A stretch of DNA of 61,988 nt, the filler included, from Dugesia japonica (Eukaryota): NCBI GenBank assembly GCA_001938525.1. It is 6 parts of 6 records of this genome, joined end to end, with 100 filler letters (N's around TTAATTAATTAA, not from the genome) between each part and the next. Parts side by side here need not be neighbours in the genome. Positions count along the whole stretch, not along the records: positions 53,685 to 61,988 come from MQRL01608691.1; 5 more parts are not named here. One strand, written 5' to 3'. Under the pieces are notes generated by a model, which was not told the DNA's origin, ran no database searches, and worked only from the letters and a program-made list of their open reading frames with translations. The position numbers and the translations under genes were made by a program. Below, in pieces: positions 460 to 61,988 of this stretch (positions are counted from its first letter, which is position 1; the number at the start of each line of letters is the position of its first letter).

Positions 460-674
460 CATCATAATAATTAGGTGTTATCACTACATGTACCAACTTT
501 ATGTTTATGAATATTATATCAATTATTTTATCTTTTACAATTTTCTGCTGTTTAGGTACTTGTATAAAATGATAGTTTTAAAGTTTAAAAAAGGCTAATG
601 AGAAAATTGAACCTGAAGAAATCGATTGAGTCAAAGTTGAATTAACCTGAAAAAAGTGATAAAAATGAATGTGA

Positions 675-1500: not shown

Positions 1501-1874
1501 ATATTAACGAGATTGAAAATGGTAGATAACGACGAACCTATGCGAGTATCGTAAAAGTTTTAAGTACTAGTAACAACACTTAACTGTCTCAAAGTAGCAC
1601 TGTTTAAAGCTAACAAAAAGCAAACCTCAGTCAAATGAAACGGACAAGCAAACAACCTGCTTTAAAAGCAAACTTACAAAGCAAATAACTAATTATTAAT
1701 TTCAATTATTAATAATTGTTACTTGTCAAACAACCACCTGAAATATATTTTTATTTTTAAACCATTTTACAGCTTCTTACGTAACGTCTCCATAGATTAG
1801 ATAACAGACAAAATACTTTCAAAGATTAAAAGTAGAAACCTAGGAAAATGAATTTTTAAGAAGTAAAATGCTGT

Positions 1875-5254: not shown

Positions 5255-5323
<69 letters not shown>

Positions 5324-5532
5324 NNNNNNNNNNNNNNNNNNNNNNNNNNNNNNNNNNNNNNNNNNNNNNNNNNNNNNNNNNNNNNNNNNNNNNNNNNNNN
5401 NNNNNNNNNNNNNNNNNNNNNNNNNNNNAATAATAATAATAATAATAATAATATCAGAATAATATTTTCATGCTTCTTATATCCGATCCATCAGTAAACA
5501 TGCATCTAGAGGATAAATAGAGAAAAGCCTAC

Positions 5533-5636
5533 CAAAAATGAACATATCATATAGAATGAAATGAAATAAGGGTATGCAACCCATGATCCGCAAAGTCCAT
5601 GCTCATTTGTGCCTGGTTCGCAATGTGACTTTTCAT
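5533..5636 (-). CDS. Cav1: L-type voltage-gated calcium channel alpha-1 (Cav1), exon covering the repeat IV pore-S6 linker and start of IVS6
   Basis: AG/GT-bounded 104-nt exon, (D)EKSHCEPGTNEHGLCGSWVAYPYFISFYMICSFL. Its phase matches the preceding exon 7247-7299. Downstream exons were not found in the window. Confidence 0.92.
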
Positions 5637-6351
5637 CTATAGGAAGTAATAATAATTAAAACAAATATTTTGATAATTTATCTTTGGAGAAAATATTTTC
5701 ATAAATATTTACACTACATTTCAAGCTTTTGAATTTTCGATCACTTTCAAAACAATTCATCATTTCGATGTTTATTAATTAGAAAAAGATATTAAATTAA
5801 AAATATATCTAATGTGCATAAATTCAGCGGATTTATCAAAAATAAATTTGAAAATCTGATCTATTAAATTATTAGAAAATCATAGAAATTATAAATAATT
5901 CAATATTTAATTAATTAATAGTTTGAACCTATTTTCTAGGGAAAAATTTTATTATAAAACTGCGGCAGCAAGAAATTCAAAATCTTAATCATTTTATAGA
6001 AAATATGAATGAAAAAAACATTTTAAAATTATTTTCTTATCCGAAATTCTAATTTATTATCGTAAATTACTTAATTCCTTAACCGTTTAATTTTTTTTGA
6101 AAAAAAATACTTTTGCCAACTAATTCCAGTTCACTATTAGTATACCATTTATCCTAATTTAAGGGTAATTTCTCAGCATACAAATGCGAATGCAATTGTA
6201 TTCCTTGTTATAACTATACTCTACATTATTTGAGGAATAACTGTTTCATTATGACAACTATAATCGGCATAAACATTATTATTACAAAAGTGCATCAAAT
6301 ACACATTTTAATCAAACAATATTTTCAAAATTAAAAATGAAAACTATTTTT

Positions 6352-7203
6352 AGTAGGTAGATAGTACCACATCGAGCCCACTCCAGACAGGGAAAATCTT
6401 TATCCGGCCGATTTTTGGTTGCATCCTTCTCATTATTTGATTGATAGATACTGAACCATTTGCGTTTTTTCATGTAATTTGATTGGTTGATACTGAACTA
6501 GTTTTCAAAATATTTTCACCTACTCGGGGAGGTGATTCAGCGCTGAGGTATCTACATACTAAATTGAACTTATCTTAATAGAAAGAAGGATGCGTTTTTT
6601 CGATAGTAGTCATTTAGTAGACAGTTTTTAATTCTTATTACAATGGTTCCAAAACTTTCTAAGTATCATTATTATTTCTATAATTACGACTATAAATATT
6701 ATTTCATTAAATTAAAAGCTTCCATCAAAATGTAGTTTTTTTAGATTTTATTTCTTGATTGTATGTCGAAATTTCGACTTTGTTCTCATCATCTTCAAAA
6801 TACTATAAAGAAATAAAAAAAATANAATAGAAAAAAGAAAAACAATATTTTGATCGTAACTTTTAATTTAATGAAATCTCAAATACGATCGATAGTTAAG
6901 TCTAAGAATTATTCTCGCAATACTTGTAATTGAAAAACTATAACTGTTATCGTTATAAATGTTCCGATGAGTACGTATTTTTATATAGAGAACGAAGCAT
7001 TTGTCGATAATAGTCCTTTAGACAATATATAGACAGTTTTTAATTCTTAGTTCAATTTTACCAAAAAATCCAATAATTCAAAAATTCGAAAATTCAAAAA
7101 ATTTTAAAAAAATACAAAACTTTTCAAAAAAAAAGTTGGCCATTAAAATTTTTTCCCTATTGTTGAGGGGGGAGATAGCTCGATGCGGTACTATCTACCT
7201 ACT
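6352..7203. mobile_element. Non-autonomous DNA transposon (~850 bp) with 26-bp TIRs, in a Cav1 intron
   Basis: agtaggtagatagtaccacatcgagc versus the reverse complement of the right end, agtaggtagatagtaccgcatcgagc (25/26). There is also an internal ~70-bp degenerate direct repeat. Confidence 0.8.
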
Positions 7204-7246
7204 TTTTATATTTAAATATAGTTTAAAAAACAAATGAAAATCTCAC

Positions 7247-8202
7247 CTGTTCCTGTACAACTGAGCATTATTTCTTGCCACGATTCACCGGTGGCAGATC
7301 TAATAAATATTTATTAATTTATCAAATATTTTGTTGAATTTAAACCTGAAAAGTACAAGAACCGCAGCGGGAAAGGTTTGAAAATTGTTATTACGGCTTA
7401 TTGCACTATCTGAGTTATTTAGAGCAATTTTACCAAACATTTGCATTCCTATTACAGCATAGATGAAGAACAGCATCACAATCAATAATGCAACATATGG
7501 CAGAGCCTAAATTACGAAATTAATTTTCAGAATAATATGCCAAAAAAATTAAAAGTGTACTTGAAAGGATTTGATAAATGTCCATAATAATTTCCGAATC
7601 GAATCCTCTTTGCTTAGAAGTTTCACTAATCGCATCACACGGAACAGTCGGAAGAAGTTGATGCTGATGAACTTTGTTTTACCTACCTGAGGAGAAGAGT
7701 TTGTCTGAATTTAATAATACAAGTAAAAAAAATCTTTTGTTTTTACATTAGCCTTTGAAATGATTATGTCAACATAGCTGCCCAGAACTACTATGAAGTC
7801 AAATATATTCCATGCATCACTAAAATAATTCTGTAAAAAACAGAGATTTTTATATAATTAAATAAAAAATTAAATGATAACCTTAAAACTGAAAGCTGAT
7901 AATTTAAGAATAAATTCCAAAGTAAATACAACAGTAAAAATAATATTTAATATATCCAATGTTTCTGTGTAAGGCTTTGGTTGTTGATCAAACTGGAAAA
8001 ATGGCATTATTATTATTATGACATCAGTTAATAAAATACTAACTCTAGCAGCCAGACAAATGGTATTGGCGAGAATTAGTGACAAAATAACATATTCGAA
8101 TTTTTTTGAGCACACCATTGACCAGATTTTATATCTCAAATGACCTTGAGGAGTATAGCGCTTTCTAGGGCGGGCTTTCAGTGCAAATTCTATACATTTT
8201 CT
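7247..8202 (-). CDS. Cav1: Cav1 alpha-1, six exons (III-IV linker to the repeat IV pore)
   Basis: Exons 8202-8044, 7992-7882, 7830-7747, 7704(or 7686)-7561, 7506-7346 and 7299-7247 are all GT-AG and in frame. They read [12 protein letters not shown]..., [19 protein letters not shown]4 [43 protein letters not shown] and the pore motif [11 protein letters not shown]. Confidence 0.97.
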
Positions 8203-8420
8203 CTGTAATACAAAAAGTTGTAAACACTATCAAAATTTTAAATATGCATTAATAATCTGAATGTTTTTATTATTTATATTATTGGTTTTCTTTCAAATAA
8301 AATTGCTACATCACATAAAATAACCGGGAAGGATAGAAGGTTTCGGAACTTTTTCCTATAAAACACTTATAAATTCATTCAAATAATAGACTTTCCACAA
8401 AGTAATTTTGCTAATCTGAC

Positions 8421-8521
8421 AAAAATGAGCATGGACTTTGCGGATCATGGGTTGCATGCCAGTATTTCATTTCATTTTATATGATATGTTCATTTTTGCA
8501 GAATTTTCTCTATTTATCCTC
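8421..8521 (+). repeat. Inverted duplicate of the Cav1 IVS6 exon plus start of the next intron (reverse complement of ~5509-5610)
   Basis: About 90% identical over ~101 nt by manual alignment. The GT donor is mutated and the copy runs into an N-gap. Confidence 0.9.
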
Positions 8522-9709
8522 NNNNNNNNNNNNNNNNNNNNNNNNNNNNNNNNNNNNNNNNNNNNNNNNNNNNNNNNNNNNNNNNNNNNNNNNNNNNNNN
8601 NNNNNNNNNNNNNNNNNNNNNNNNNNNNNNNNNNNNNNNNNNNNNNNNNNNNNNNNNNNATTATTATTGTGGTATTTGTGAAGATTTCTGTAATATTTAT
8701 GTATGTTATGGAACTTTGATTTTATTTAAAACGATTTGTTAATTAGTTAACTAAAAAAAACGATTTTGTTTGAATATGGTTTGGTAGTGGTTGTGTTTTA
8801 TTTGTAGTAGTGTTTTTAAAAGTAAATCAATTAAATTGTAAATTTAAACTGACTAATTGGTGATGTACATAAGCAACGTCACGCAAATGTTGGCAGATTC
8901 TAGTTTCTCTACCCGATCGCTCACTCGTCACATAATATCTGCAAATATGACGTCACAAAAATTCTTCATATAACATCTTAGTTATATTTCCTTATTAAAA
9001 TCATTTAGCAATTGATTTTTATCTGAGTCCAACATATCTAACATTATATCGATTTCTGCTTTAACAGAATTAGAATTTTCAATTTTAATCGAATTCTTCA
9101 ATTTCAAGTTTTTTTCCAAATAGTCTTGAATTTTTCGATTCATCGTTAATGAAGTTCTACATAATTTTTTCCTTATTCTAGATCTAAAACAATTTCATTA
9201 ATTTTTGTCAAATAATCATTCCCATAAGAATACGAATTAATATCAGGAGTTAACATTAAAATTCNGATAAAGTTTTTTTTAGCATAAATACTATAAATAA
9301 CATTTAGTTTGCTGATAATTGTCAGTATTAAATATCAGCGTTTTAGAGTGAGTCAGTGAGTAAATTAGGTGTTTAATAATATAATATATATAAAACCAGT
9401 ATAAATAAATAGCATTCTNNNNNNNNNNNNNNNNNNNNNNNNNNNNNNNNNNNNNNNNNNNNNNNNNNNNNNNNNNNNNNNNNNNNNNNNNNNNNCATTA
9501 AAAGAAAAATGAACAGTGTGTGAAAACAATTATTTATTATATAAGTGCAAAATCTACTAGATGTACATTATCTAAAAATTTACATATTATTAGGCGTATT
9601 CATTATAAAACACGAAATCGGCGATATACATGAGATGTTCGTTATCAGTGGCAAAATACAGCATATAAAATTACACCTCTTACTATTAATACGAAGAGAA
9701 TTAATTTAA

Positions 9710-11270
9710 CGCTAGTAGTGGATGGTTTTAGGGCTTTAAATTTCAAGCTAATTTGCACAACATGAAGCACAGGTGAAGCTGCTAGGGCAGATTTTACGGC
9801 AGCAAATGGGTTTAAGAAAATATTATATGCGGTTATACGGGAAGGTGGTTATGGAAGTTGGAAAATGGTTACCTTTTTAAACATGTGTTTAATGTTAATG
9901 AAACAGGTTTGTTTTGGAAACATTTTCCAACAACAACCTATATTTCAAAAACAGAATCTGTTGCATCTGGATTTAAAGTAAGCAAAGACAGTCTAACCTT
10001 ACTACTCGTTGGTAATGACAATGGTGACATCAAACTAAAGCCATAGTTAATTTATCACTCCTAGAATCCAAGAGCTCTGGAAGATGTTGACAAAAATAAC
10101 TTCCTGTGTATTGGAGATCTAAAACCTTGGGTTACTAGTTCTTTATTTGTGGATTGGATGAAAAAATGCGCCATTCCTGAGTTCAAAAACTATTGCGAAC
10201 AGAAAAATTTGACTTTTAAAATATCAATAGTGATGGATAATGCACTAGGATACCCATCATATATAGATGAGCTATTAGATAATATCAAAGTTTTATTTAT
10301 GCCTCCAAACACAACTTAATTAATTCAACCAATGGATCAAGGAGTAATCTTAAACTTTAAATCTTATTATATACGACGGACTTTTAAACAGCTATTACAA
10401 AGCTACCGATGTGGATAAAGAAACAACTATGGCACAATTTTGAAAAAAACTACAATGCATTGAAAGCAGCTACTAATATTAGTGATTCTTGGGCAGAAGT
10501 AAAATTCTCATGTATGAATGGTGTGTGTAAGAAAATATGGCCAGAATGTACAACTTTTACGTAGATTGACGATGTGCCATTATTTTGGGTATAAATAGTT
10601 CATTTAGCTCATGAAGCTCATTTCGAAGGATTCGACTTCAACGAGATTTTAAATGTACAAGAAGATATTGATGTCAGCACCGCAGATTTAATTGAAATGT
10701 CTCAAAATATTTACGTCTATGATGACACAACTCTAGAAGTACCAGAAGTGAAAAAATTAATAATAAAGCGTATAGGTAAAGCAATTAATTTAATATCTGA
10801 AGCATAAGAAATATTTCATGCTGAAGATCCAGATTCTAATCAAAGTACAAAAGTTGCACAAACTGTAGAGACCTCTATAAGCTGTTACAAAATTTTATTT
10901 GGCTAAAGAACAGAAAGCTATTCAAATGAAACTTCATAATTTTATTGAAAAGCAGCCCAAAGAGAAGCAAAACCTAAATCCGATTGAAACGTACAAATTA
11001 GACTCTGAATAAATTCTATAAATTTATGTTGTTCATTATAAATTATATTTTATGAAATATTATTTATTTATTATAAAATTTTATTCAAGGTAAAGTTGGT
11101 TTAAAAAAACTTATTAAATAATGACAATATATTTGTGCTTATTTTTCATTTAAACATAATCGCTAGATTTTATCGGAACCAATTATATAAAAATAGATAC
11201 AAATGTATATAAAATTACAGCGTCGTGTTTCTTGGGAACCTATTAGCGACTCAACTCTAAGCTCTGGTGT
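9710..11270 (+). mobile_element. Tigger/pogo DDE_1 transposase relic in a Cav1 intron
   Basis: VFNVNETGLFWK...SGFKVSKDSLTLLLVGN.NGDIKLKP, MDNALGYP, FMPPNTT*LIQPMDQGVILNFKSYY, with stops and frameshifts. Ends are approximate. Confidence 0.9.
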
Positions 11271-26257: not shown

Positions 26258-27593
26258 TAAAATGACAATTTCACAAAATTTATAAATCGAAATTTTATTT
26301 ATTTGTCAAAAAAAATTCAAATTCAAGTGTAAAAAACTACTTTACACAGTTACAATTATATAAACAAAAATGTAAATTATTTATTTCTAATTCTTTTAAA
26401 TAATTCATACTAATAAATAGCGTAATATGTGAAAAAAATTATTTATATATTTTTTAAAATTTTAGATAGTATTAAAATGTACAAAATATTACAATAAGTT
26501 TAATTTATGAAAAGGTAAGCTACTTTAAGAAATTAATTCATTCTAAAATATTTAAATTATAAGTAAAAGATACAATTCATTTCTAAAATTAAAATAAACT
26601 GCAATTTTAATAATTTCCAATGCAAATGAATAAATAATGTATATATAAAAATATCCATTTTACAATTACAGTTATTGCGAGACTAATTATTGGATGTAAC
26701 CATTGATCATTTTTCAGATTTCATTAAAATCAAAGATACGAGCAATTTTTTTTGTTTTCGATAATATTTCAAATATTAAAACATCATATAAAAATCAAGA
26801 TATATCCCATAAATTATCTTTAAAAAACTCTTTTATATCTCTTAAAATTCAAATTTCCTCAAATATCCTTGAAGAATTCCTGAAATATTCAATAAAGAAC
26901 TTAAAACCAGTTTAAGGGAACTATAAAACAATGTAAAAACCGGTTATAACATCATATAAAACTCATACAAAATACCATTAAAAACCCTTAAAAAACCACA
27001 CAATAAATACTATAAATTTCATGAAAACTCGTAAATTATTAAAATCTCATACAAGTTCCATAACATCCCAATAAGTCCCTTCAAATTCACGAAAACTTAA
27101 ATATTTCCTTAAAAACTGATGAAAAACTTCACAATTACATTAAAATTTATGAAAAATCCCATACTTTTATTAAAATTTATGAAAACCCAAATATTTACTT
27201 CAATTTCTTGAAACACTCATATATCCTTAAAAAAATTCACACAATCCCCATTGTGAGTGTGTTTTGAAAAGCGAGTTGAAATTTTGTGTAATTGGTGATC
27301 ATTTTTATTAAAATCTTTTATTTAAAAAGATTGAAATTATAGATGATAAATTTAAATGACGAATATTTGATTTTAAATTTTGAATGAACGAATAGTTGGT
27401 TTTAAATTTTAAATAACGATTTAATAATACATCAAAATTTTTCAATAACTTTAATAAAATTTTAAATAATTTGAAAAATGATCACCAATTAAAACACGGG
27501 ATTTTAATTTGTTTGAATAAACAAATAGTGTTAGTTATAGTTTTGTTTTGCGAATAAATTTTATATGGAATTGAGTTTTGATATTAATGATCC

Positions 27594-30131
27594 TGTTGGG
27601 GTGAAACACCCAGTTAGAGACGAAAAGTAGATCCAAAGTTCAAATCAGTAAAGGAGGACAGTAATGTGATTATCAAAAGTATTCGAAAGGTAAAGCAATC
27701 AAAATCAGGTTTGGGACATAATGCACATAACCATTAAAAAGAGTAACATAAAAGTAAAAATGGATCCAAAAGACAGGGGTGAATAAAGTGAAACCACATC
27801 ATCAATATTAATCAAAAGAAATAAAGAGGCTCATAATAAAAATCAATGAAATTATATTTATATAACAATTAATTATCAAAGAAAAGTTAATTAATTATGA
27901 AATAAAATAAATTAAAATTAGTCGAAAATTGGTTTTATACTAATAACTTCGCTCAAAAAAACCGGAGAGAGTTCAGGTAAAAATATCTGAAAAGAAAATA
28001 ATGAGAAGCATTGGAATTTCGTAAGAAGAAAATTTTGCCACCATCAGAGGAGCTACCACAAGGGTTGGAAGAATGGGCCAATAACAACCCAAGAAATAAA
28101 AATAAAACAAAGACCTGATCATCACATGATGATTTAAAAATAGAGGCCAATAAAAGTTCAAGAAATCCATGAAAAATCTGGAAAATCAACACCAAAACCA
28201 ATGAAAAACAAGAAATTTGAACTAAAAATAACCGACCAATGTAGAGTGAATTGGGGTCTTACCAAAAATTGTATTAAACCCCCCTGAATTTTAATCAAAT
28301 ATTTACACTTTTTCTCATATTTCACTTACGGAAAGTTATAATAAATCTATTCAGGAAAGCAACATTTGGAAACCGATTAGTTATTATAGCAATTAATTTA
28401 ACGAAGGCATGGTATTAATTTCCACTGCAATAATTCCAAGCATCTTCTTTAATTAATAAATTAGAATTACAAGGAACGGTCGAAGAAACGGAATTAAAGC
28501 AAAACCAATCTAACGAGAATCAACCCATTATCGGAACCCGTTGCAGTTAATTCTATCTCCGCAGTAAGTAAAAGTTCATGGTTAATTGTTTATGTTATAT
28601 GATTTATGTAGTAAACTGTTAATAAAATTATTTAATTTAAAGTTGATTGATTTTGTATAGATATTTTAGAGCTAAACCTGAATAGAAGTTCCATTTTTCT
28701 TTTCCATTTAAAGTATTAGAAAATCATGATCTGGTCAGAAAAACGATCTCCCACAAAATTAGATGTTGATTGCAGGCAGAGAATACATAACCCGTGTCCT
28801 GATAGTAATTATCAACTCGCGTATTGTCACCACTAAAGTCCACTATACACTCATACATCGGCCATCGTAATGAAAACTTTTGCCTAGAGAAACATGATTA
28901 ATCAGAGAGACTTAGGAAATGGGTTGGCACATACTAACTGCCATCTATGGCTAAACCTGATTGAAAAAGCACACTTTTATTCTCTATCGTTTTCCCTGCT
29001 AATCTTTCCCAGTAACTAATTCAAGCAAATCAGTTCACCATAAGAGCAAAAATAAGTTAATATTCACCTTCTCACCAGTAGGTGTGTCAGAAGTTTACAA
29101 GCGCAAAACAAAAATTCATTTTTTACTACTGTCTCACCGTAATGGGACACAAAACCACCGAGTAGAGATGTAGTAAATGGACTCACAAGCACAGTCAATA
29201 ATTGATGAAATTATTAGGTAATTTTTGTATCTGAAGCATTATTGATCACATTCATATATTAGTGGCATTCGTCTCTTTGAGCGCATGGCTAATTAAGGTC
29301 GTTACTAAAAACACACATATTATGAATTTTGTCCGTGAGCATTCTGCGTTACATTCCCGTTAAAGTAGTGGATAACTATAACTATCAATTATTTCATTCA
29401 TGTGCGCATGAATTACTATCCTATTTACACTATTATGATTCTTAAAATGATATTATTATGCATTCCATTATTATTAACATTAACAATATTATTATAATTA
29501 TTAATATTTGTATATCAATTTTTCTATTTAATACCCGTGTTATTGCCAATATTAAAATTAGTAAAACGAATAGCATCTTGATTATTAGTATCACCGTCAC
29601 CATTATTGTCAGGCCGAGATCAGTATTTTCCACAATTAGTAACCGTATTGTGGCCACTTATTTAATGGTAGCTCAAGAGAATTTTAAATTGGTAATTGTA
29701 ATTAAGATCAGCGAAAAATAAATTTCCTCAAACAATATATCTCTGACCTATCATTTCAACTGGGGAATCCAACGTGGATCCAATGAGACGATAGTTATGA
29801 CCAAGTGTCTTTTGATTTTTTGGTTACCGATCCGGCCCAGTGGTTAGACTCTGGCACTCTGTAGGAGTTGTAATTATTAGAAATAAAATATAATGTAATA
29901 TTAATGTTTGATTGACGTCTTGGTGAGTATAATAAGGGAAATAATGAACCCGAAACAAAGATGTACGAGTGATAACCTCCCATAAAGGTTGAAGGTCAAA
30001 CTTAGGGGCATTAGATTAAATTCTTGAAAGGGATCCCCTGAGAGCCGTTTTTTCTTGGCCAGTTTTTCCGTTTTATCATCAACTCAGGTGAAGCCACAGC
30101 AATCCGACGAGTACTACAAACTCATGTAACA
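27594..30131 (+). mobile_element. Long LTR-like element (TGTTGGGGTGAAAC family), ~2.5 kb, with decayed internal ORFs
   Basis: Starts TGTTGGGG and is collinear with 58245-59400 (acaagggttggaagaatg, CCAAT boxes, ccgttgcag, AATAAA). It has the 3' motifs gaaccc and agattaaattctt and ends ...tgtaaca. No matching TSD, so the 3' end is tentative. Confidence 0.7.
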
Positions 30132-30837: not shown

Positions 30838-31086
30838 TGTTGGGGTGAAACACCAGATTAAGGCAAATAAAATGGCGTAAGTAAACACGAAATTCGAAAA
30901 TTCTACCTAAGAAAAAAAATGAAGAAATCGGACCCACGAAGGGCATAATCTAGTTGGAAAGAAGAATTACGAAAGCCAAAATGGGATAAGAATGCCAAAA
31001 TTCGTGCGAAGGACGAAAGAACTAGAAGATAACGAGGGAATAAAAAACCCAACAAAGTCAAAAATCGGTAATCCGAACAACGAAAA
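30838..31086 (+). mobile_element. 5' end of the same LTR family, truncated at a scaffold end; near-identical to 53518-53584
   Basis: tgttggggtgaaacaccagattaagg...atggcgtaagta.acacg.aattcgaaa is shared with 53518. Confidence 0.8.
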
Positions 31087-31186
31087 NNNNNNNNNNNNNN
31101 NNNNNNNNNNNNNNNNNNNNNNNNNNNNNNTTAATTAATTAANNNNNNNNNNNNNNNNNNNNNNNNNNNNNNNNNNNNNNNNNNNN

Positions 31187-31594
31187 TTAATATTCTCGAG
31201 TGTTTTGCATAGTTTTTAATAAATTTTCTGTAATAATTTGTAAGTCCTAAATATTCACGAAGTTTTTTAAGCATTTAAAGTTGTTCAAATTCTTTAATTG
31301 CTTTTATTTTAAACCATCTTTTGAAATGATATGACCAAGGAAATTTTCACATATACGCATTTATTAGCACTTAATTTCGAACCTGAATTTTTGATTGGAT
31401 TATAAACATTTTCCAGTCTTTTTGTGAATTCCTTCTCAGTTTTAGAAAATATTAGTATAAAATCAAGATAAACAATTGCTTCCTTCCAATTTAAGAGTCC
31501 AAACACTTTTGTCATTAATTTTTGAAATTTTGCTGGTACTGCAGCAATTTCAAATGGCATTCGATTGAAGCAAAATTGACGAAACTTTGTAGAA
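31187..31594 (-). mobile_element. Ty3/gypsy RT relic
   Basis: QFCFNRMPFEIAAVPAKFQKLMTKVFGLLNWKEAIVYLD. Cut at ~31596 by a GTAGGTAGATAGTAGCGCACT terminus. Confidence 0.88.
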
Positions 31595-31887
31595 TGTAGG
31601 TAGATAGTAGCGCACTGAAGCACCCCCTTATCGAAAAATAATAATACTGTTTCAGAATTTAGGTATTGGTGTGTGTGTATACGTAAAAGTGAACTCGAAT
31701 GGGTTGTGGAGTTATTGATTTTAAATTTTGGGGGGGGGTTTATGACATGGGCGTGTCATGATTGTCTTTATATTGTCTAAAAAACTTATAGAGTAGGGTG
31801 CATGGTTCTCTCTATAAGAGGTGGTATCGCACTGAAATAGCTGTTGACTTATTGCGCGCTTTTTTTTAATCTTAATAGTTTTGTGAG

Positions 31888-32835
31888 TAGTTGTTGGATT
31901 TTGGTGGGTAATGGCTTGTTAAAGATGTAATGTGATGAGGAATTTGTTGGTGGTAACGATGAATAAATGACGTGGGAGCTTTATCTCCTGGCAAAATGAA
32001 ATTTGGAAGCGTGTGTGGCTGCATAAAAAGCAAAAAATAAGTCTTATAAGAAGCGCTGTCGTGAGTATCAGGAGGAAGTGAAACTTTCTCACTCCCAGGA
32101 TTTTATATGGAAGGCTCAACTCGAATCTTTCGCNGAGTTTATTCGGTTCTCACAAGAAAAAGAGAATCAATTAGTGAACGATATTTTAAAATTGCGGTAG
32201 CCTGTGCCTTTTGACCCAATCTTAATTTACAGACGCGAAACTGAGTTTGCCTATTCAGTGTATTTTTTTTTGTTTATCAATAAATATTTCAAGTTTCTTT
32301 TGTTCATGCAATTTTTTTGTGATCTGGTTATCTCCATGTGTTAATTACCTTTAATTTAGTGTCCTTAAATCAATTAAATAAGTGTCATCAATTGTTACGT
32401 GGACTGTTGTTAGAGCGAAATGAGCCAAGTGGTGTAAACAGATGTTGTTATGACACATCAAACAAAAAATCAAACCATAAGGAAGCTCGAGATGGTGTAT
32501 AAAAAGCAGCTGGAGATCGCAAATAATACTGCGAATAGGCTGTTCCGAAAGGTAAACTTTCTAACACAATATATATCTGACCTGACCGCCAGGCAAAGTC
32601 TTTGAGCTATTAATCAGTAGAATAGCATCGATGATGANGCAGCCTTTAATTTTTTGGATGAACCTCCAGTTCAACCCTGACAATACACACATTTCTTTTT
32701 GAACGAATAAATGTTGCACATTATTACTCTTGATCTGGTTTTATATACATAGTTTAATTAAGGGGAATTTTGAACCCGGACCAAATGGATGTGAGCTAGC
32801 ACTCAAACTACGGGTTACGAGTCACCGGCTCCATC
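31888..32835 (+). pseudogene. Decayed LTR cargo cassette: ORF B (31888-32260), ORF C (32450-32680) and the LTR 3' motif (32772-32835)
   Basis: MTWELYLLAK*NLEA...YKKRC...WKAQLESFAEFIR...ENQLVNDILKLR aligns with 61508-61894. RKVNFLTQYISDL aligns with 29712-29750. Confidence 0.8.
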
Positions 32836-33399
32836 TAATCATCTAATAGTAATCATCACCGGAATCATCTAATAGTATGAGTTTGTGAGCATCCATTGTC
32901 TAAGCAACTAATAGTATGATCCAATGGACATCTATTACTATGAAACCTGAGCAACTAATGTTAATACTACCCGAAAAACATTATTATTAATATTTCCCGG
33001 GGTAGCATCAAATATTAATGTTAATATTCTCCGGCGCTGCTAATTTTAATATTGCTCTGGAAAAAATATACTTTAAAAATCGTTAATTTTACTTAATTTA
33101 AACAAATAATAAGTAATTTGACCTCATTTAAACAAAAAATCATAAAAATACATTAATTAAAACAAAATATGTATTATGTAATTATTATGTAACCATTACG
33201 TTGTCATTACGCAACTATGATATCCTCATACCGTAACCACTGAATCATTAGGTAATCAACACACACAAAAATTTGTACCAATCAATTCGCTAAACACATG
33301 TGGGCGACCACTAAAATTTCTGCCTCAAAAAATTTTATACTCGCATAGGGGTAATGAGGCAGTGGGTTACTATCCTTATATTATCACTTTCAAGGAATC

Positions 33400-36600: not shown

Positions 36601-37544
36601 ATTAATGAGTTTAAAAGATTATGTCAATTGATTATTTTAACGATTACGCACAAATCATTTATAATTATTTTTGCAAAGTTAATAATGGAATATATACTGT
36701 AAGAATGATTTATAGATGATCCATATCTGGGAATTATTTTTAATTTAAATAATTTGTTATATATTATATTAAAATGATTTCTCCCGAAAATAAAACNNNN
36801 NNNNNNNNNNNNNNNNNNNNNNNNNNNNNNNNNNNNNNNNNNNNNNNNNNNNNNTATGGCAGCAATTTGAACTGATTTCTTAATCAAAAAAGTAAACTAT
36901 TAATGACGAACCAAATAATACTATTAAAGTTACAACAAATACATCTACCATGAAGAATTCTAATGAAGTAAAATGTAAAGTAAAGAAAATTAATTAACAA
37001 TATACAGACGCATTTTACAATTGTAAGTATTACGAGAATAATTGTTGGACTTAAACATTGATCAGAATTGAGATTTGATTAAATTAGTTAGATTGATATT
37101 AATTATTGTAAAACTTTAGTAATTGTGTTATTTTTCATATTTTTATATAATTTGAAAGCATAAAAATAATCCTTCTTTTAAAAAGTGATTATTCTTTTAG
37201 TAAGTTAATCGATTTTTTATTTAATATTTGAATTATTTTGGTTTTTGGAATAGTTTCAATTAGGCTAGTTCAGGTTTATTTTTATTAATTAATCATTTAA
37301 TAGCTGTTACTGCTCGATTTTTGCAAAGGTTCAACTTTATCATACTTTTCAATAAAAATTAGAGAAATCCAAAACTCAAATTATTGTTTTTGCGCTTAAA
37401 AGTTTTAACATTTAAAATTAATAAATTAATTTGAAGTAATAAAATGAATTTTGAAATAAAATTTTTAAAGTTTCTTCTATAGATTAAAGTTTAATCTCAG
37501 ATTTTTAACTTAGTTATTTTTCAAAATCAAATTGAAATGTTTAG

Positions 37545-39309: not shown

Positions 39310-41260
39310 TTGACAAATAAAAAATTATTTTACCGAACAAAAATTATTTTATCAAAAAGAAAAATTATTTTATCAAAAAGAAAAATTATTTTATCAAAAA
39401 GAAAAAATATTTTATCAAAAAGAAAAATTATTTTATCAAATAAAATTATTTTATCAAATATAAAAAATATTTTGTCAAATAAAAAATTGTTTTATCAAAC
39501 AAAAATTTTTTATCAAATAGAAAATTTTGTTTATCATATAAAAAAATTATTTTATCAAATAAAAAAATTATTTTGACAAAAAAAATTATTTTATCAAATA
39601 GAAAAAATATTTTATGTAAAAAAATATTTTATGTAAAAAAAATATTTTATGTAAAAAATTATTTTGTCAAATAAAAAAATTATTTTATCAAAAAAATTAT
39701 TTTATCAAATATAAAAAATATTTTATCAAATAGAAAAAATATTTTATCAAAAAGAAAATTATTTTATCAAATAAAATTATTTTATCAAATATAAAAAATA
39801 TTTTGTCAAATAAAAAATTGTTTTATCAAATAAAAATTTTTTATCAAATAGAAAAAATATGTTTTTAAAATGAAAAAATTAATTTGTCAAAAAAAATTAT
39901 TTTGTCATAAAAAAATTATTCTATCAAAAAGAAAAATTATTTTATCAAACAAAAAGTATTTTATCAAATAGAAAAAATTTGTTTATCATATAAAAAAATT
40001 ATTTTGACAAATAAAAAATTGTTTTATCAAATAAAATTATTACTTTACAATTGCAATTATTACGAGAATAATTGTTGGACATAACCATTGATAGTTTTTT
40101 AGAATTCATTTAATATAAAAGCTTTGATCAAAATTTNNNNNNNNNNNNNNNNNNNNNNNNNNNNNNNNNNNNNNNNNNNNNNNNNNNNNNNNNNNNNNNN
40201 NNNNNNNNNNNNNNNNNNNNNNNNNNNNNNNNNNNNNNNNNNNNNNNNNNNNNNNNNNNNNNNNNNNNNNNNNNNNNNNNNNNNNNNNNNNNNCAATAAA
40301 AAAATTATTTTGACAAATAAAAAATTGTTTTATCAAATATAAAAAATATGTTTTTAAAATAAAAAATTAATTTGTCAAATAAAAAATTATTTTATCAAAT
40401 AAAATTATTTTTTTACAATTGCAATTATTGCGACAATAATTGCTGGATATAACCATTGAAAAAAGTCAATTCCTGGCGAAGAAAAGGTCGAAAAATCGAA
40501 TTGTTATCCATTATCAATAAAAAAAACCAGAATTTTTATCAAAGCTTTTATATTAAATGAATTCTAAAATTATTTTATCAAAAATAAAAAATATTTTATC
40601 ATATAAAAAAATATTTTGTCAAATAAAATTTTGTTTTATCAAATAAAAAAAATATTTTTTAAGATGAAAAAATTATTTTGTCAAAAAAAAATTATTTTGT
40701 CAAATACAAAATAATTTATCCATAAAAAAATATTTCATCAAACAAAAAGTATATTATCAAATAAAAAATTAATTTATCCAAATAAAAAATTTTTTTATCA
40801 AATAAAATTCATTTATGAAATATAAAAAATATTTTTTTTAATGAAAACTTTATTTCATCAAATAAAAAATATTTTATCAAATAAAAAATATTTATCAAAT
40901 TTAAAATATATTTTGTCAAATAAAACATAATTTATCCAATAAAAAAATATTTTATCAAATAGAAAGTATTTTTAAAATAAAAGCTTCGATCAAAATTTGT
41001 TTTTTTTTGTTTGTGATAATAGTTCTAATTTTTGACTTTGTCTTCGTCAGAAAAATGTCAATTCCTGACGAAGACAAAGTCAAACATTAGAATTATTATC
41101 ACAAACAAAAAAACAAATTTTCATCGAAACTTTTATTTTAATTCATTCTGTAAAACGATCAATGGTTACGTCCAACAATTATTCTTGCAATAATTGCAAT
41201 TGTAAAACAAAAAATATTTTATCAAATAAAAAAGTATTTTGGCAAATAAAACAAACTTAA
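39310..41260. repeat. Degenerate ~21-bp AT-rich minisatellite (aaaaattattttatcaaata-like) with embedded MITEs
   Basis: Directly visible. It explains the KIILSKR-repeat ORF. Confidence 0.9.
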
Positions 41261-51707: not shown

Positions 51708-52489
51708 AATTTAATTTAATATTCAAAATGTACCGAGGTCTAAAGAGATTAATCATTACAAATATCTATGTATATTGATCAATTTCATAATTTATTGCTC
51801 AAAATTCATCTTGATAGTTTATTGTGGCCAATAAATGTTTTCGCAAACAAACTAATATAATTAAGCAATATTTGTGACAAAAATCTTCAACAGTTAAAAT
51901 GTCAAAAGAACAATAAATAAAAAATAAATAACGCTGTTAAAAATAAAACTTTATTGTTATATATTTCAAAGGATCAACCGTCATCATCAAACTAAAATGA
52001 AAAAAATGAGTTTATTCAGTCTGTATTATTCAAACAAAGATCAATGCTATTATACTGAATATAAGAAGGCTATAATTCTTAATTTTTAATTCTTAAACTT
52101 TTTAACAATTTTTTTCAAAAATATTAATTTATCTAATAATATTTTATTAAAATTACTATTACCTATAAAATCAAAGATGCTTTTTCAAAAATATTTAAAA
52201 TTTTTAATTTTAGATAATATGAAAAAATAAAAATTGATTTTATTTTTAAATGATAAAATACAAAACCTATAAAAAACATGAAAATAAGATTTCAAAATTT
52301 GAAAAATTATTTTAAATCTTAAAAATTTAAATTAATTTAGTCGACAGAGCTGTCTGTACATTAATCCGTGGTTTATGAAATCTAATCATTAACGCTTCGT
52401 ATTATGTAGTTACATCAATTATCGCTGTTAATAATAAGAAGAAATGTAAATAAAAACTCCAAATACATTTATTTTTACATAATATCTCA

Positions 52490-52843
52490 TTCAAAGTAGC
52501 GTCCATCATTGCTAACAACATTTCCCCACCTTTCTAGTAACAAATGAATTCGACGATAAAAAAATTTTTCTTTCTTGGAATTTACTCAATATTCAAGCCA
52601 TTTTTGGATATCATAATGATTGTTGAATAGTTGTTAAGAAAAGCCATGTTGCATTGTGCGAAAAAGGTGGTAATCACTTGGTGCGACGTCTGTTGAGTAT
52701 AGCGGGTGAGGTAAAACTTCTCATTTGAATTCTGTTATGGTATTCCTAACGAAAATCGAAGTTTAGAGTCGAGCATTATCATGCTGTAACAACACTGTCT
52801 CGTGTCAATTGGAATAGTCTGACCATTTTTTGTGAAATGCTTG
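52490..52843 (-). mobile_element. mariner transposase C-terminal relic
   Basis: VLLQHDNAR, EVLPHPLYSTDVAPSDYHLFRTMQHG, ERWGNVVSNDGRYFE. Confidence 0.9.
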
Positions 52844-52844
52844 A

Positions 52845-53322
52845 CTCGGCTTCTTTCTTGAGAGCGATACATTTTTTTTATATCTAGTCACCTTACTATG
52901 GGCCGTGGCTATCTCGGCCTCCCATCGACGTTTGGCTAACTTATACAGATCCCAGGTGAGATCAAGGTCTTCACTAGTTTCCCGCAGCTTTTTATTTGGA
53001 GCCTGCGATTTATTTTATTAATCATGTAAATAACAAAATCCAGTAATATATTTTTAGTAGAGCCGAAGTTTACCTTAATCAATGTACGAAGGCATAATAT
53101 AAATAAACAATGAATAAAACACCTATTTATTCACAATTTAAAAAAATATCATTGGGGATCATTATTATTGTCGACATTGGGTGCCGTGTTTTCCATATCA
53201 GTCACTCCAGTTGGTTCTCTAACACCCCAGAGGAGATTAGATATAAAGGCCTGTACCGTGGGCGCTGGAGTGGGAGCGGGAGGCCGATATTGGAAGGATG
53301 TTGCAAGAGTTCGATCATGAGG
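52845..53322 (-). pseudogene. Decayed LTR cargo cassette: ORF A C-terminus (53322-53149) and ORF B N-terminal half (~53096-52845)
   Basis: APNKKLRETSEDLDLTWDLYKLAKRRWEAE matches ORF B at 61562. ISNLLWGVREPTGVTDMENTAPN matches the end of ORF 60885-61304. Confidence 0.8.
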
Positions 53323-56190: not shown

Positions 56191-57076
56191 TCATTGTTCC
56201 ATTTGCATAAATACTCACTCGTTGTGTTAGTTTCGTTTTAATTTCCGTATTAAAATTGTGTATATTTTTTGTGAAAATTACATCAGTATTTATATCAGTT
56301 TTTTTAAGTAAAATAGCTGGAGATGTACCGTTAAAATATTATAATTGGAATAAGCATATTGACAGAATTATACTATAAAGTAAAACAAGGGTGAATTAGT
56401 TTTTATTTAATGAATTAAAACGAAAATAATAAAAATAGCAGCAAAATTATTTATAAAATAAAAGCTTCGATCAATTTTTTTTGGTTTTTGATGATATTTT
56501 AAATTTTCGAAAATTCGAAATATCATCTAAAACAAAAAAATTTGATCGACACTTTTATTATATGAAATCTGAAAAACGATCAATGGTCACATCCAACAAT
56601 TATTCTTGCAATAATTGTAATTGTAAAGAATAATTTAAATCATAATAAAAGGTTTATGAGTATTATTTGGTGAGTTTTATAAGTTCGAAAGCGATTATAA
56701 TAACGAGATTGTAGAATTATGCTTACTATATTATCGTTATTATTATTATTATTTAAAAACTACTTAGTTATGAATTTTATCACTATCATGGTGTTTTTAT
56801 TGGATATCGTAATGATCCAACACCCTATGATACTTTACAAAAATTGAAAACTGATGCCAACAAACTGACATTGTTTGGTTGACAAAAATTGAAAGTTTAC
56901 AAACTGTTTTAGCCTTCTCGTCCTGTTTTTCCTTTTAAAAAACGTGAAATCAAAACGAGTGCATTATCCATTCTTTTCAAGTTTTAATTCTACTAGTAAA
57001 ACGCGAATACAACTTCGAAAAATGATAAATCTATCTGATCATTCTGATATTGAATATTTTTATTCAGTAACAGAAA

Positions 57077-58201: not shown

Positions 58202-58244
58202 TTCGCTCAAACGGTCTCGCAGACTCGGATTTTATAGTTTCTTC
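57077..58244 (-). mobile_element. Ty3/gypsy 3' end: integrase relic, PPT and short 3' LTR (57407-57077, 331 bp)
   Basis: WILKVGAPRYIHTDCG, SSPYHNN, RFVGPF. PPT aaagaaggggga (57408-57419) is followed by TGTGAG...CCCCTCA. Confidence 0.85.
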
Positions 58245-60885
58245 TGTTAGGGTGAAACACTCGTTAAAGAAAAAAGGAAAATAAGGCCAAAAGCTCAAAT
58301 TAGTAAAGAAGAACGGCAGGGATATTATAATCATCAATAATGGAATTTGAAAGGAGAAAAAATTAAGAACCCGGATAGGTAATAATGAAAATAACCATAA
58401 AAAAGAATAAAATAAAAGTGAAGATGGATACGAAGAACCAAGGTGAATAAAGCTAACACGCATCAATGTTAAGAATTAAAAGAAATTATTAAATTAATAA
58501 TAAAAGCCAAGAAAATTATTAAAGGAAATAATTAATTACCAGAAAAATATCAATTAATTTTGCAATAAAATAAAACAAAATTAATCAAAAAATTCGTTTT
58601 ATACGAATAACTTTGCTCAAGAAAGCCACATGAGCTTGGTACAAGAAAATTCGAGAAGAATTTTGTCAAAGTATTAGGATTTGGTCAATGGAAAATCTTA
58701 ACACTATCAAGAAGGTTTTTACAAGGGTTGGAAGAATGAACCAATAAGGGGCGAAAAATAAAAATAGAACAAAGAAATAACAATCACATGTCACTCCAAA
58801 ATATAAGCCAATTGAAGCACAAAAAACTCTACAAAAAATCTAAAAATTGGTAACACCTCCAATGAGAAACGCAAATTTCAAACTAAAAATAAGTAACCAA
58901 TGGCAATGATGTTGAAATGCATTAGAAAATCCTATAAAAGGACCCAGAATTTAAGATGAAAAGAAACAACTTTTACTACAATTTCCCTGAGTGACTTACG
59001 TATAAACTTGTTCACGAAAAAACGAGATTTTTCAAGTAGCACTACGTCCTCAATTGGATTACCAAAGAAATTGTAAGATCGCCGTTACTGATAAATTAAT
59101 TAACCGAGAACTTTATTAGATTTGTAGAAGAAAGTAGTCTAACCGAGTCAGAAGATAATTCATAGTGGAAATAATTAATTAGCTAACCAAAACCTGAACC
59201 TTAATCAAAGGCCACCGTTGCAGAATACTTTACCAAACAAATTACTTAGTAAGTAACACATCTATGTATTTTAATGTATTTTATTACATATATTTTATGT
59301 GAATGGAAATCAATGTTAATAAAATATAATATTTATCGAATAATTTAATCATTCAGTATTTGTGATAATAAATTATGAAATGATTACCTGATATTATAAG
59401 ATATATTTTTAGACAACCGCATTGAGTAATAATGTCTTCTTGTGTTACTAATTTTAGATACATGCGATCATACATAGATACATTCATAAACTGTATATTA
59501 CTTTAAGAAAATCTAGTCATTATCTGTTGCACCACTGTAACAATAGTTTACACAGTAGTTATATCGGGGAAAAGAAATAAAATCGACACTGATGCACATA
59601 CTGATATTTTATCTAATACAACCATGCACCGATATGAACATAATTTTTTGAGTGAGTATGCGCGAGGCACTAATAATTCATNNGTCTACCACTTGTTGTT
59701 GAAGTTTAAGTGACAAATGAATTACCTATGATCATCGATTAAATCATCGGAAAAAGGGATTCTTGTATAATAGAAAATATAATTAATTAATGGAAATATT
59801 TCGCCAGAAGACAACGAAATGCTCATTCTTGAGAAAAAACTCTCCCGAATCAGTGCGAGACAACCGTTCAGCCGTATCCATCCTATAAGACTAAGCACTG
59901 ATTTCTTTTCTCTTACTTGGCGTAAAAGATGTTCGGCAAACCTTAGCGATGTGAGCAAGTTTCGACAATAAAACGACGATAGGAAATTTCCCGGAAAATG
60001 TAATGATCCAAATTGCACTCATAAGAACAATCAATCTGGGTTGTAAGTAGTTATCACTGGAAGTGTCCTGAGTATACATAATGTGTTAACCTGTTCAAAC
60101 TAGAGTTCTGTTATCATCCAGAAATCATGATTTTAAGATCAGAAAGCTTATTTAGTTATCGTATGTGTTATTTATTATATGATTCGACTTTATTTGTTTT
60201 TGTTTGCTTAAATGTCGTTTGTATCCGATTCTCCAGCTACACGCCACCGACAGTTCCCGAGTTAGTAATTCATTTAATTTTTGAAAATCCCTCTAATAGT
60301 TCTAATATACTAGCAGGTAAAAAGTTGATTAAAAAACTTATTATGTATGGTTTTATGCGATTTTGAGTATTATGATCATGAATGAGGTTTTTGACACCTT
60401 TGTTATCTGCGTTATTGCATTTTGATCGTCCCTCAATTTTAATTGAATTTTTTGTTTTTGATGCAAGCACCGGTACTTGCCGTTTACGTTATTTCCTTTT
60501 GGTATTGCACTCAGAGATCATCGTATTTCTATCCCTTAATCTTAGTCTAAATCGTTCATTATACTTAGAGAATGCCTGTGCAACTAAAACATGCACTCAG
60601 GAAGATTAAGCTACAACGTAAGGCGGCCAGGTTAAGACAATTACTCGCTCATATATTGTCAAAGGGGAAAATCAAACATCCCGACGAAACCGACTTATGT
60701 TGTTTTGTTGAGAGGTTTCCACTGAATTTTCATGTGAACATCGACGCAGAATAAGAAAGGAATATGGTTAATGTTTTTTTGGATAATAAATTTGTTAAAT
60801 CTTTGTTTGAATTTTTTTATAAATCTAATTAATGAATTTAACGAAATTCGTCTATAAACACAAAACCAATTTTTATTTTTTCTAG

Positions 60886-61304
60886 TGAATCACAAATGGG
60901 AAGTTTTGTTGGACCGACGCACTGGTCGCACCATATTTAGGAAGTATACGAATCCCTATAATCTGAATGCGGGTGTTCTTATAAATTATTCAAATTTGTC
61001 CGAGGAGGATGCTGCGAACGAGCGTGAATGGGCCAAAGCCAAACGTCAGACTTTTTATGCTTGGAATGGCCCCAATCAAAGCCAAGAAGTATTTCATTCT
61101 ACCACCGCATTTCCACCTCTAAATACTGAGGAGATTGCGACTACCAGCGAATGGCGTGCAGGTCCGTCAGTGACCCCCATCTTGGTCGAGCATTTATCTC
61201 CCAACACAAGATTATACAGTGATATAGGTAACACTTTATGTGACCTGCGAAATATCGCTGACGGAGTTGAATCCGAAAATAATGCTCCTAATAATGAGAC
61301 GTGA
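60886..61304 (+). CDS. Cargo ORF A, open terminal exon of unknown function
   Basis: Polypyrimidine-TAG acceptor at 60885, then 139 open codons. A possible upstream exon ends at 60766 (phase-compatible 119-nt intron). C-terminal homolog at 53322-53149. Confidence 0.6.
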
Positions 61305-61507
61305 CATTGATAACACTAGTAGTTGTTTTTATTAAGTGCTGTATTAATAATAATAATTTTTGTAATTTCACCACCAGTCTTATGTCTTCTCGTTTGATTA
61401 GGATTATTATTCTTTATAAATAGGAACAATTCGTAAGTAACATCTAGCTTATTTTAAGGCTATGATTTGTGAAGGTGTGTTCTTTTGTCTACACTAATTA
61501 ATTGTAG

Positions 61508-61894
61508 ACTCCACTAATGATTCTTTTTGATTTAGTGCATTCCTTGTTAACTCGTACCATAGCACCCACCAAAAAGTTACGTGAAGTCGACGAGGACCAA
61601 GAGATGAGTTGGGACCTCTATCGTCTAGCCAAGAGAGGCTGAGAAGCGGATGTCATGAATTCCACCAGCAAAGTGAAAAGATATAAGACAAGATGTCTTG
61701 CTTTTAAAAAGGAAGCCGAAGCCTCGCACACACAGGAACGTGTGTAAAAGGGGCAGGTAGAGTCTTTTGCAGAAATAATCCGGTCCTACCAATACCGAGA
61801 GAATAAATTGGTTAATGGCATCTTGGAATTACGGAAAAGGATACCCCTTAAACCACTGTTGATAGATAAAAGCACACAAACCTCTCGGCCATAA
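61508..61894 (+). pseudogene. Cargo ORF B, helical/coiled-coil-like protein ending LIDKSTQTSRP, with two premature stops
   Basis: TPLMILFDLVHSLLTRTIAPTKKLREVDEDQEMSWDLYRLAKRG*EAD...RV*KGQVESFAEIIR...ENKLVNGILELRKRIPLKPLLIDKSTQTSRP*. Both stops align to Trp in other copies. Confidence 0.8.
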
Positions 61895-61988
61895 CTAATT
61901 ATGCCTATAAATAAATGTCTCCTTGCTTTATAATGACTTATTTTGTTGTCTATCTTTAAAAAACAGGATTTTCTTCCTGATTACATAT

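What the first reader, a model, noticed from the sequence alone, without database searches (positions are those of the whole stretch)
61508..61894. ORF B: three diverged copies under past codon-level constraint, one ending in an LC8-type KSTQT motif
Seen: the copy here and the 52845-53000 (minus) copy share 32 of 53 aligned residues by manual count, allowing one frameshift. Many differences are synonymous (tgg gac ctc tat vs tgg gat ctg tat; cta gcc aag aga vs tta gcc aaa cgt). A third copy lies at 31888-32260. Known: (K/R)xTQT is the canonical dynein light chain LC8/DYNLL-binding motif, used by viral proteins such as rabies P. Inference: a mobile-element accessory protein that may recruit LC8 for dimerisation or transport. 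Caveat: the third copy reads LIYRRETE here, so the motif may be decayed or subfamily-specific.
Basis: partly seen in the sequence, partly recalled or inferred. Interest (0 to 1): 0.7.

Follow-up and report, generated by a model that had tools for sequence, protein, structure and literature searches.

The report
Decayed extra gene of a retrotransposon
Three broken copies of a small coiled-coil gene, most likely an extra gene of an abundant jumping element in an animal genome, are real and were once under selection, but the proposed dynein-light-chain binding motif is seen in only one copy and remains unproven.

Summary
Past purifying selection is clear: synonymous sites are saturated and omega = 1 is rejected (p 9e-10 and 5e-13). 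All three copies are broken. The family is highly repeated in this species. Copy 1 is the last of a row of small same-strand ORFs, 2.5 kb behind a ~775-bp LTR, in an AT-rich, probably flatworm genome full of dead gypsy elements. The protein is two heptad-patterned helices plus a low-confidence tail, with no relative in the protein, family or fold libraries searched. Best reading: a coiled-coil accessory ORF of an LTR retrotransposon (0.6). The DKSTQT in copy 1 is a near-ideal LC8 motif in the expected setting (0.03-0.4% by chance). But copy 3 lacks the anchor, copy 2 is cut before it, and family-wide conservation could not be read. LC8 binding in this subfamily: about 0.3. No link to gag or pol is shown.

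The parts
61508..61894 (+). ORF B copy 1: 128 codons, stops at 61640 and 61745, first in-frame ATG at 61517; helices at residues 35-43, 47-72 and 82-110, low-confidence tail
61865..61882 (+). DKSTQT, LC8-type motif, four codons before the stop
   Evidence: motif definition from PMC3078936 abstract and PMC6607443 passages
52821..53038 (-). ORF B copy 2: N-terminal part only, one frameshift near 52870, cut off at about 52815
31889..32260 (+). ORF B copy 3: 5 stops, no TQT in the tail
58245..59022 (+). LTR (end approximate), 69% identical over 790 columns to the LTR at 27594-28364; high repeat depth drops at its end
27594..28364 (+). best-preserved LTR of the family: 771 bp, TGTTG...CAACA ends, AATAAA shortly before the end, followed after two bases by TGG (primer-site-like)
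60569..60754 (+). small stop-free frame upstream ('ORF Z', 61 aa) with a local peak of repeat depth
60858..61304 (+). ORF A, 148-codon stop-free frame upstream of ORF B; weak likeness to 53307-53176 (-), upstream of copy 2
   Evidence: 3 of 300 shuffles reach the score
32444..32680 (+). 'ORF C', broken frame downstream of copy 3; second copy at 29712-29822 (+), 1.35 kb behind the 27594 LTR
   Evidence: (tblastn 43% over 37 aa, E 1.7e-4)
52400..52815 (-). mariner-like transposase remnant that cuts copy 2 (recognised by eye from recalled motifs; no Pfam hit)

Best explanation
ORF B is a dead copy of a small (about 120-130 aa) accessory gene of an abundant LTR retrotransposon family, most likely gypsy-type, in a probably flatworm genome. 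It is one of several short same-strand ORFs (Z, A, B, C) in the internal region behind a ~775-bp LTR. The protein is a two-helix coiled coil with an unstructured tail. It most likely works as a non-enzymatic oligomerising adaptor for the element's own replication (binding the element's particle or a host protein), was kept by purifying selection while the subfamilies diverged to synonymous saturation, and decays once a copy is inserted. Shown: coding history, repeat nature, helical pattern, position behind an LTR. Inferred: membership of the same element as the LTR, gypsy type, adaptor role. The LC8 step is an optional add-on for the copy-1 subfamily, about 0.3.
For: Selection: (codon model, 83 and 60 codons; omega = 1 rejected, 2dlnL 37.6 and 52.3; upper limit of omega about 0.2 for copy 1 vs 3). 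Repeat: in two contig runs the summed depth over the three ORF B bins is 871/1519/9297 and 1041/1520/9879 against 5-13 for the single pieces listed; 948 of 1955 and 959 of 2019 laid contigs are under 90% alike. All 30 bins from the LTR to the window end are covered at 41 or more; diverged pieces cross the LTR end (58772-59116, 35 differences) and link ORF A, the spacer and ORF B (61101-61399, 61279-61563, 61317-61607). LTR: five sharp-edged copies of one terminus; likeness between the 58245 and 27594 copies ends where the 27594 copy has AATAAA, CAACA and then TGG (that end pattern occurs 7 times in both strands of the window). ORF C lies behind copy 3 and also behind the 27594 LTR in the same sense. 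Window context: RVT_1, RNase H and rve remnants. Structure: (a/d positions 0.71-0.88 hydrophobic against 0.06-0.20 elsewhere, both helices, copies 1 and 3; best of 7 registers). Precedent: extra ORFs in planarian Burro, plant Ogre (PMC6431247 section 7) and rotifer LTR elements (PMC5408684 passages).
Against: No gag or pol is shown to be contiguous with ORF B: the window ends 94 bases after the stop; no pol likeness was found in 59023-61988; no gag or protease was found between the shared segment at 50.3 kb and the RT at 48.5 kb. The 58245 LTR lacks a clean end and primer site and sits directly beside an older integrase on the other strand, so it could be a separate insertion. Copy 2 lies upstream of an LTR start (51707) rather than behind one, and copy 3 is separated from its LTR start by an assembly gap and an inverted RT piece. 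ORF B is absent behind the 27594 and 51707 LTRs. The model has mean pLDDT 64, pTM 0.45, from 3 sequences.
Confidence: 0.6

Rival explanations
1. First reader's mechanism, as an addition to the best explanation: the tail is a working LC8 (DYNLL) site. LC8 zips two tails together next to the coiled coil and so stabilises the dimer, or links the element's particle to dynein-based transport.
For: DKSTQT fits 6 of the 7 positions of the published pattern [D/S]-K-X-[T/V/I]-Q-[T/V]-[D/E] and lies in a low-confidence tail next to a coiled coil, the setting the paper names (PMC3078936 abstract). It has D at -4, K at -3 and no proline inside, as favoured (PMC6607443 passages). Chance: 0.42% of 200,000 shuffles of ORF B hold [KR]xTQT, 0.13% the published pattern, 0.03% [DS]KxTQT. 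In the protein alignment copy 3 keeps a basic residue and a T in register. A retroviral precedent exists: foamy virus Gag binds LC8 through a coiled coil (PMC3705263 passages).
Against: Copy 3 has E at the invariant Q position and F at +1; anchor deviations abolish binding, and many TQT peptides do not bind. The core of copies 1 and 3 is 49% identical and the likeness stops just before the motif. [KR]xTQT occurs 3 times in the window's six frames, 2 of them outside this family. One contig of X1 fits on both sides of 61860-61898 but not across it (one contig, 35 letters on the shorter side). The motif was picked out after looking at many frames.
Confidence: 0.3
2. ORF B belongs to another kind of mobile DNA (an endogenous DNA virus, a Polinton-like element, or a DNA transposon with passenger ORFs) and only happens to lie among LTR debris; rows of short ORFs with AT-rich spacers look virus-like.
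For: Several short same-strand frames with ~200-bp spacers; no pol link; ORF B depth exceeds LTR depth in one bin; a DDE_1 remnant lies 3.5 kb from copy 3.
Against: No match in IMG/VR for ORF B (0 of 162 pattern hits) or ORF A (0 of 18); no viral fold at E <= 0.001; no polymerase B, capsid or helicase family in the 21 kb scanned around the copies; diverged contigs cross the LTR end.
Confidence: 0.2
3. ORF B is not a separate gene but a piece of a larger polyprotein (gag N-terminus or an Smc-like coiled-coil part of a Burro-type polyprotein), broken up by decay.
For: Position behind an LTR is where gag lies; Burro polyproteins carry Smc-like parts and accessory ORFs can occur as subdomains (PMC6431247 section 7); foamy Gag has N-terminal coiled coils.
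Against: Copies 1 and 3 both run into AT-rich sequence that stays alike only at DNA level after the frame ends; no retrotrans_gag or zinc-knuckle hit; no Burro domain (MATH, BIR, BCL2, ankyrin, dUTPase, Env) was hit in the regions scanned.
Confidence: 0.12
4. ORF B is a host gene family (processed or duplicated pseudogenes) unrelated to mobile elements.
For: Strong purifying selection; a few RNA reads of relatives exist.
Against: Depth 100-1000 times that of single pieces; all three copies broken; 0 of 37 laid RNA reads are 99% alike to this locus; no relative among 1.84 billion representatives.
Confidence: 0.05

Closest known systems
Accessory ORFs of Burro (GYPSM1) giant gypsy elements of planarians (PMC6431247, section 7 read whole)
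   Same: Very abundant LTR element of an AT-rich, probably planarian genome; extra ORFs upstream in the internal region; decayed copies with stops and frameshifts.
   Different: Burro exceeds 30 kb with a 4,873-aa polyprotein and named domains; none was found here. The LTR here is about 775 bp; Burro LTRs are recalled as about 5 kb (not from a call). No Burro sequence was available to compare.
Extra ORFs of plant Ogre and bdelloid rotifer LTR retrotransposons (PMC6431247 section 7; PMC5408684 passages)
   Same: Short extra ORFs of unknown function, some defined only by coiled-coil prediction.
   Different: No sequence likeness tested or found; rotifer extra ORFs lie downstream of pol and several are enzymes or env-like, whereas ORF B has no transmembrane or enzyme signature in Pfam.
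LC8/DYNLL clients with a KxTQT motif beside a coiled coil (PMC3078936 abstract; PMC6607443 passages; rabies P and Bim as DKSTQT bearers are recalled, not from a call)
   Same: Motif sequence, disordered C-terminal position and neighbouring coiled coil in copy 1.
   Different: Conservation, the usual filter for true sites, is not met in copy 3 and is untested elsewhere; no binding data.
Foamy virus Gag CC3 - LC8 interaction (PMC3705263 passages)
   Same: A retroelement protein with coiled coils linked to LC8 and transport.
   Different: There the link runs through a coiled coil of Gag itself; here it would be a linear motif on a separate small ORF.

Membership tests
Once-functional protein-coding sequence | dN/dS well below 1 between diverged copies, in one frame | tested here: met
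   synonymous sites saturated, so only an upper limit (about 0.2) is meaningful
LTR retrotransposon (Ty3/gypsy) | LTR with TG...CA ends, poly(A) signal and primer site behind it | tested here: met
   27594-28364; the 58245 copy is 69% alike but its end is decayed
LTR retrotransposon (Ty3/gypsy) | ORF B inside the same element as the LTR | tested here: inconclusive
   continuous multi-copy cover and bridging pieces, but no single piece spans LTR to ORF B; copies 2 and 3 are in disturbed settings
LTR retrotransposon (Ty3/gypsy) | gag and pol (PR-RT-RH-IN order) in the same element | tested here: inconclusive
   RT, RNase H and integrase remnants abound but none is contiguous with ORF B; window ends 94 bases after copy 1
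LTR retrotransposon (Ty3/gypsy) | second LTR and target-site duplication | not testable with these tools
   no genome held
Burro / GYPSM1 | giant polyprotein with MATH, BIR, BCL2, ankyrin, dUTPase, Env parts | tested here: inconclusive
   no such Pfam hit in 27-36 kb and 50-62 kb, but the sequence is decayed and cut by the window end
Burro / GYPSM1 | sequence identity to the published elements | not testable with these tools
   Grohme 2018 not held; no repeat library available
LC8 client | [D/S]K-X-[T/V/I]-Q-[T/V] motif | tested here: met
   copy 1 only
LC8 client | motif in a disordered segment next to a coiled coil | tested here: met
   pLDDT under 50 at residues 114-121 and 123-128 (shallow alignment); heptads
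LC8 client | anchor conserved in homologues | tested here: not met
   0 of 1 informative homologue (copy 3, itself decayed with 5 stops); copy 2 cut; other genomic copies not readable
LC8 client | direct binding | not testable with these tools

The most novel reading that the evidence does not exclude
A very abundant flatworm LTR retrotransposon encodes a dedicated small coiled-coil protein, unlike any protein in the libraries searched, whose subfamily gained or kept a canonical LC8 site. It uses the host's LC8 hub to dimerise or to reach the nucleus, or soaks up LC8 and so weakens piRNA-guided silencing (LC8/Cut-up is needed for such silencing in Drosophila, PMC7861614 abstract; whether flatworms use LC8 that way is not known to me). 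It would be a transposon-encoded linear-motif mimic of a host hub.
Probability: 0.2. Interest if true: 0.7.

Novelty: new member of a known kind. Interest (0 to 1): 0.32.

Why it matters
Extra ORFs of LTR retrotransposons are known but almost none has a function. This one is abundant, was strongly conserved and has no relative in the libraries searched, so it is an uncharacterised family in what is probably a laboratory flatworm. If the LC8 site holds across a subfamily, it gives a cheap, direct test of how a retrotransposon taps a host hub protein; a search for LC8 + TQT + retrotransposon listed 3 papers, by title and abstract start about host silencing or engineered vectors. Without that, it is one more decayed accessory ORF. 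It may already be in repeat libraries that I could not consult.

Tried and rejected
Homologue searches: Pfam gave no family for copy 1 and only sub-threshold hits for the other 3 of 4 proteins; word search found no candidate for copy 1 and 0 of 8 for ORF A, near lengths only; HMMER over 1,835,955,588 representatives gave 1 hit, P0005 (E 2.9e-9), rejected because it is five repeats of 9-13 bits each in a DUF6570 protein. IMG/VR 0 of 162 and 0 of 18; JGI metagenomes 0 of 245 and 0 for the LTR start. Atlas: ORF A best score 0.82 to RAMP clusters with low recognition, rejected; ORF Z no usable hit; ORF B itself was not searched there. Foldseek: 0 matches at E <= 0.001 in the viral and PDB libraries; the wide VIA-align search was not run, as a two-helix model gives generic matches. 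My by-eye reading of 59.3-59.9 kb (-) as an integrase zinc finger and RNase H end was not supported and is dropped. The chain 'shared segment at 32.8/50.3/55.9 kb, then gag-pol' is weak: no gag found. No tRNA gene in the window, so the primer site could not be matched. No complex was predicted. Earlier findings: nothing by place, by sequence (twice) or by the first word set. Papers: no text holds the LTR start; some searches gave context only. Supplements were not opened; repeat libraries in supplements of PMC11410931 may bear on the element's name.

Full report
Setting. The window is 17-32% G+C, with microsatellites and assembly gaps. No whole genome is held. It carries exons of mitochondrial ribosomal protein S2 at about 53.9-54.5 kb, whose best named relative among 21 hits is from the fluke Fasciola (68%); all runs that hold the DNA bear one species label. 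A free-living flatworm such as a planarian is my inference, not a result. The rest is largely decayed mobile DNA: RT, RNase H, integrase and DDE remnants.

Copy 1 (61508-61894, +) has two internal stops. tblastx finds copy 3 (49% over 90 aa, E 7e-22) and copy 2 (44% over 63 aa, E 2e-15, plus a second frame), while plain blastn finds neither. Copy 2 is cut at about 52815 by a mariner-like remnant (motifs recalled; Pfam gave no hit) and never reaches the tail. Copy 3 has five stops. There is no fourth copy in the window.

Past selection is shown. Mismatches pile up at third positions in all three pairs; pS is 0.78-0.99 and pN 0.30-0.41. A codon model rejects omega = 1 for copy 1 vs 3 (83 codons, p 9e-10) and copy 1 vs 2 (60 codons, p 5e-13). 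Distances run to saturation, one to the bound of the fit, so the point estimates mean little; the upper limit is about 0.2. Because the blocks were chosen by protein likeness, I shuffled alignment columns and let any codon position count: 0 of 20,000 shuffles reached the observed excess in either pair. The three copies therefore come from separate, long-diverged subfamilies that each kept the protein before these copies died.

It is a highly repeated family. Laid at 80% likeness on 58210-61988, two contig runs give summed depths of 871-9297 and 1041-9879 over ORF B, 586-3322 and 788-3844 over 58210-58965, and 41-129 and 60-201 in between, against 5-13 for the single pieces listed; about half of the laid contigs are under 90% alike. 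The tool warns that this is no copy number; it does show many related places. Loose ends of related contigs, and 5 RNA reads of run X22, run without a stop across the place of copy 1's second stop, so relatives open there exist. RNA: 5 of 10.5 million and 32 of 13.6 million reads were laid, all only in part and none 99% alike. This locus was not seen expressed in these two runs; relatives appear at a trace level, which DNA carry-over could also give.

What carries it. One terminus with a sharp left edge occurs five times (27594, 30838, 53518, 58245 on +, 51707 on -). The copies at 58245 and 27594 are 69% alike over 790 columns, and the likeness ends where the 27594 copy shows AATAAA, CAACA (the inverse of its first five bases) and, two bases on, TGG. 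That end pattern occurs 7 times in both strands of the window, so finding it within some tens of bases of the likeness end is unlikely by chance (about 0.3%, my estimate). This is a 771-bp LTR with a primer-site-like start. Behind the 58245 LTR follow 1.5 kb without a recognised gene and then short + strand frames: ORF Z (60569-60754), ORF A (60858-61304) and ORF B. Diverged contigs cross the LTR end and link A, spacer and B, and no bin falls to single-piece depth. ORF A weakly resembles the DNA upstream of copy 2 (3 of 300 shuffles). A further frame, ORF C, follows copy 3 and recurs behind the 27594 LTR (E 1.7e-4). Against this: no piece spans LTR to ORF B; the 58245 LTR has a decayed end and abuts an older integrase; copy 2 lies before an LTR, not behind one; ORF B is missing behind two LTR copies; and neither gag nor pol is contiguous with any copy. 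The LTR link is thus likely, not shown.

The protein. AlphaFold2 on the three copies, with X at the breaks, gives helices at 35-43, 47-72 and 82-110 and a tail below pLDDT 50 (mean 64). Both long helices show a heptad pattern in copies 1 and 3. No family, sequence relative or fold was found; the single HMMER hit is a repeat artefact. A basic, coiled-coil, non-enzymatic adaptor is the most likely role; that step is inference.

The LC8 motif. DKSTQT matches six of seven positions of the published pattern and sits where such motifs usually sit (PMC3078936, abstract and outline; PMC6607443, 12 passages). By chance 0.03-0.42% of shuffled ORF B sequences hold such a motif, depending on the pattern, so it deserves a test. 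But the same paper shows many TQT peptides do not bind and anchor changes abolish binding; copy 3 has E and F at the Q and following T positions, though a basic residue and the first T stay in register. Copy 3 is badly decayed, so loss after death is possible, as is a subfamily-specific motif, as is chance. One contig fails to align across the motif while fitting on both sides. The 40 variant rows shown omit the motif, but they omit the two stops as well, so this says nothing. I put a working site in copy 1's subfamily at about 0.3.

Comparison with what is known. Extra ORFs of unknown function are known from Ogre, Burro (PMC6431247, five passages and section 7) and rotifer LTR elements (PMC5408684, 11 passages). 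ORF B works like these; membership of Burro could not be tested. Foamy virus Gag binds LC8 through a coiled coil (PMC3705263, three passages), and LC8 serves piRNA silencing in flies (PMC7861614, abstract). PMC8532177 and PMC11410931 were seen as passages only and gave context. The searches listed no description of this ORF or of a transposon-encoded TQT motif; repeat libraries and most subscription journals are outside them.

Verdict. Real, once-selected, abundant, uncharacterised accessory ORF, most likely of an LTR retrotransposon; new member of a known kind; interest 0.32. The LC8 idea is a fair lead resting on one copy.

Noticed in passing
window:27594-28364 (+); starts also at 30838, 53518, 58245 (+) and 51707 (-): A 771-bp LTR family with TGTTG...CAACA ends and a primer-site-like TGG; five starts in 62 kb. 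The 58245 copy abuts an older gypsy integrase on the other strand.
   Followed up: partly
window:32766-32844 (+), 50365-50195 (-), 55917-55750 (-): A GC-richer segment conserved at 75-78% DNA identity in three places, apparently non-coding; in two places it lies 5' of an RT remnant in the same sense, and it ends in a stretch like the LTR start. Possibly a packaging or priming signal.
   Followed up: partly
window:32444-32680 (+) and 29712-29822 (+): 'ORF C', a second broken, helical-looking frame in two copies, no Pfam hit.
   Followed up: partly
window:60569-60754 (+): 'ORF Z', a 61-aa basic frame with its own peak of repeat depth (719 and 770 against about 50-90 on either side); no Atlas hit, Pfam sub-threshold only.
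   Followed up: partly
window:59790-60100 (+): A further near-open + strand frame with a Cys/His cluster, upstream of ORF Z; not compared with anything beyond Pfam.
   Followed up: no
window:61738-61863: Summed contig depth peaks at about 31,000-33,000 near 61793, twenty times the rest of ORF B: one very abundant subfamily, or another repeat, matches this short stretch.
   Followed up: no
window:53860-54545 (-): Two exons of mitochondrial ribosomal protein S2, a host gene among the element debris.
   Followed up: partly
window:7870-8226 (-): By eye, exon-like frames resembling a voltage-gated calcium channel repeat (recalled, not tested).
   Followed up: no
window:6692-6938, 14210-14393, 26623-26777, 37013-37086, 39932-41251, 56507-56650: A short AT-rich repeat in many copies and both orientations, partly in tandem arrays at 39.3-41.0 kb; possibly a MITE or satellite.
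   Followed up: no
window:13451-13462 and five other gaps: Runs of 44 N around a fixed 12-base spacer with stops in all frames are assembly linkers, not biology.
   Followed up: no
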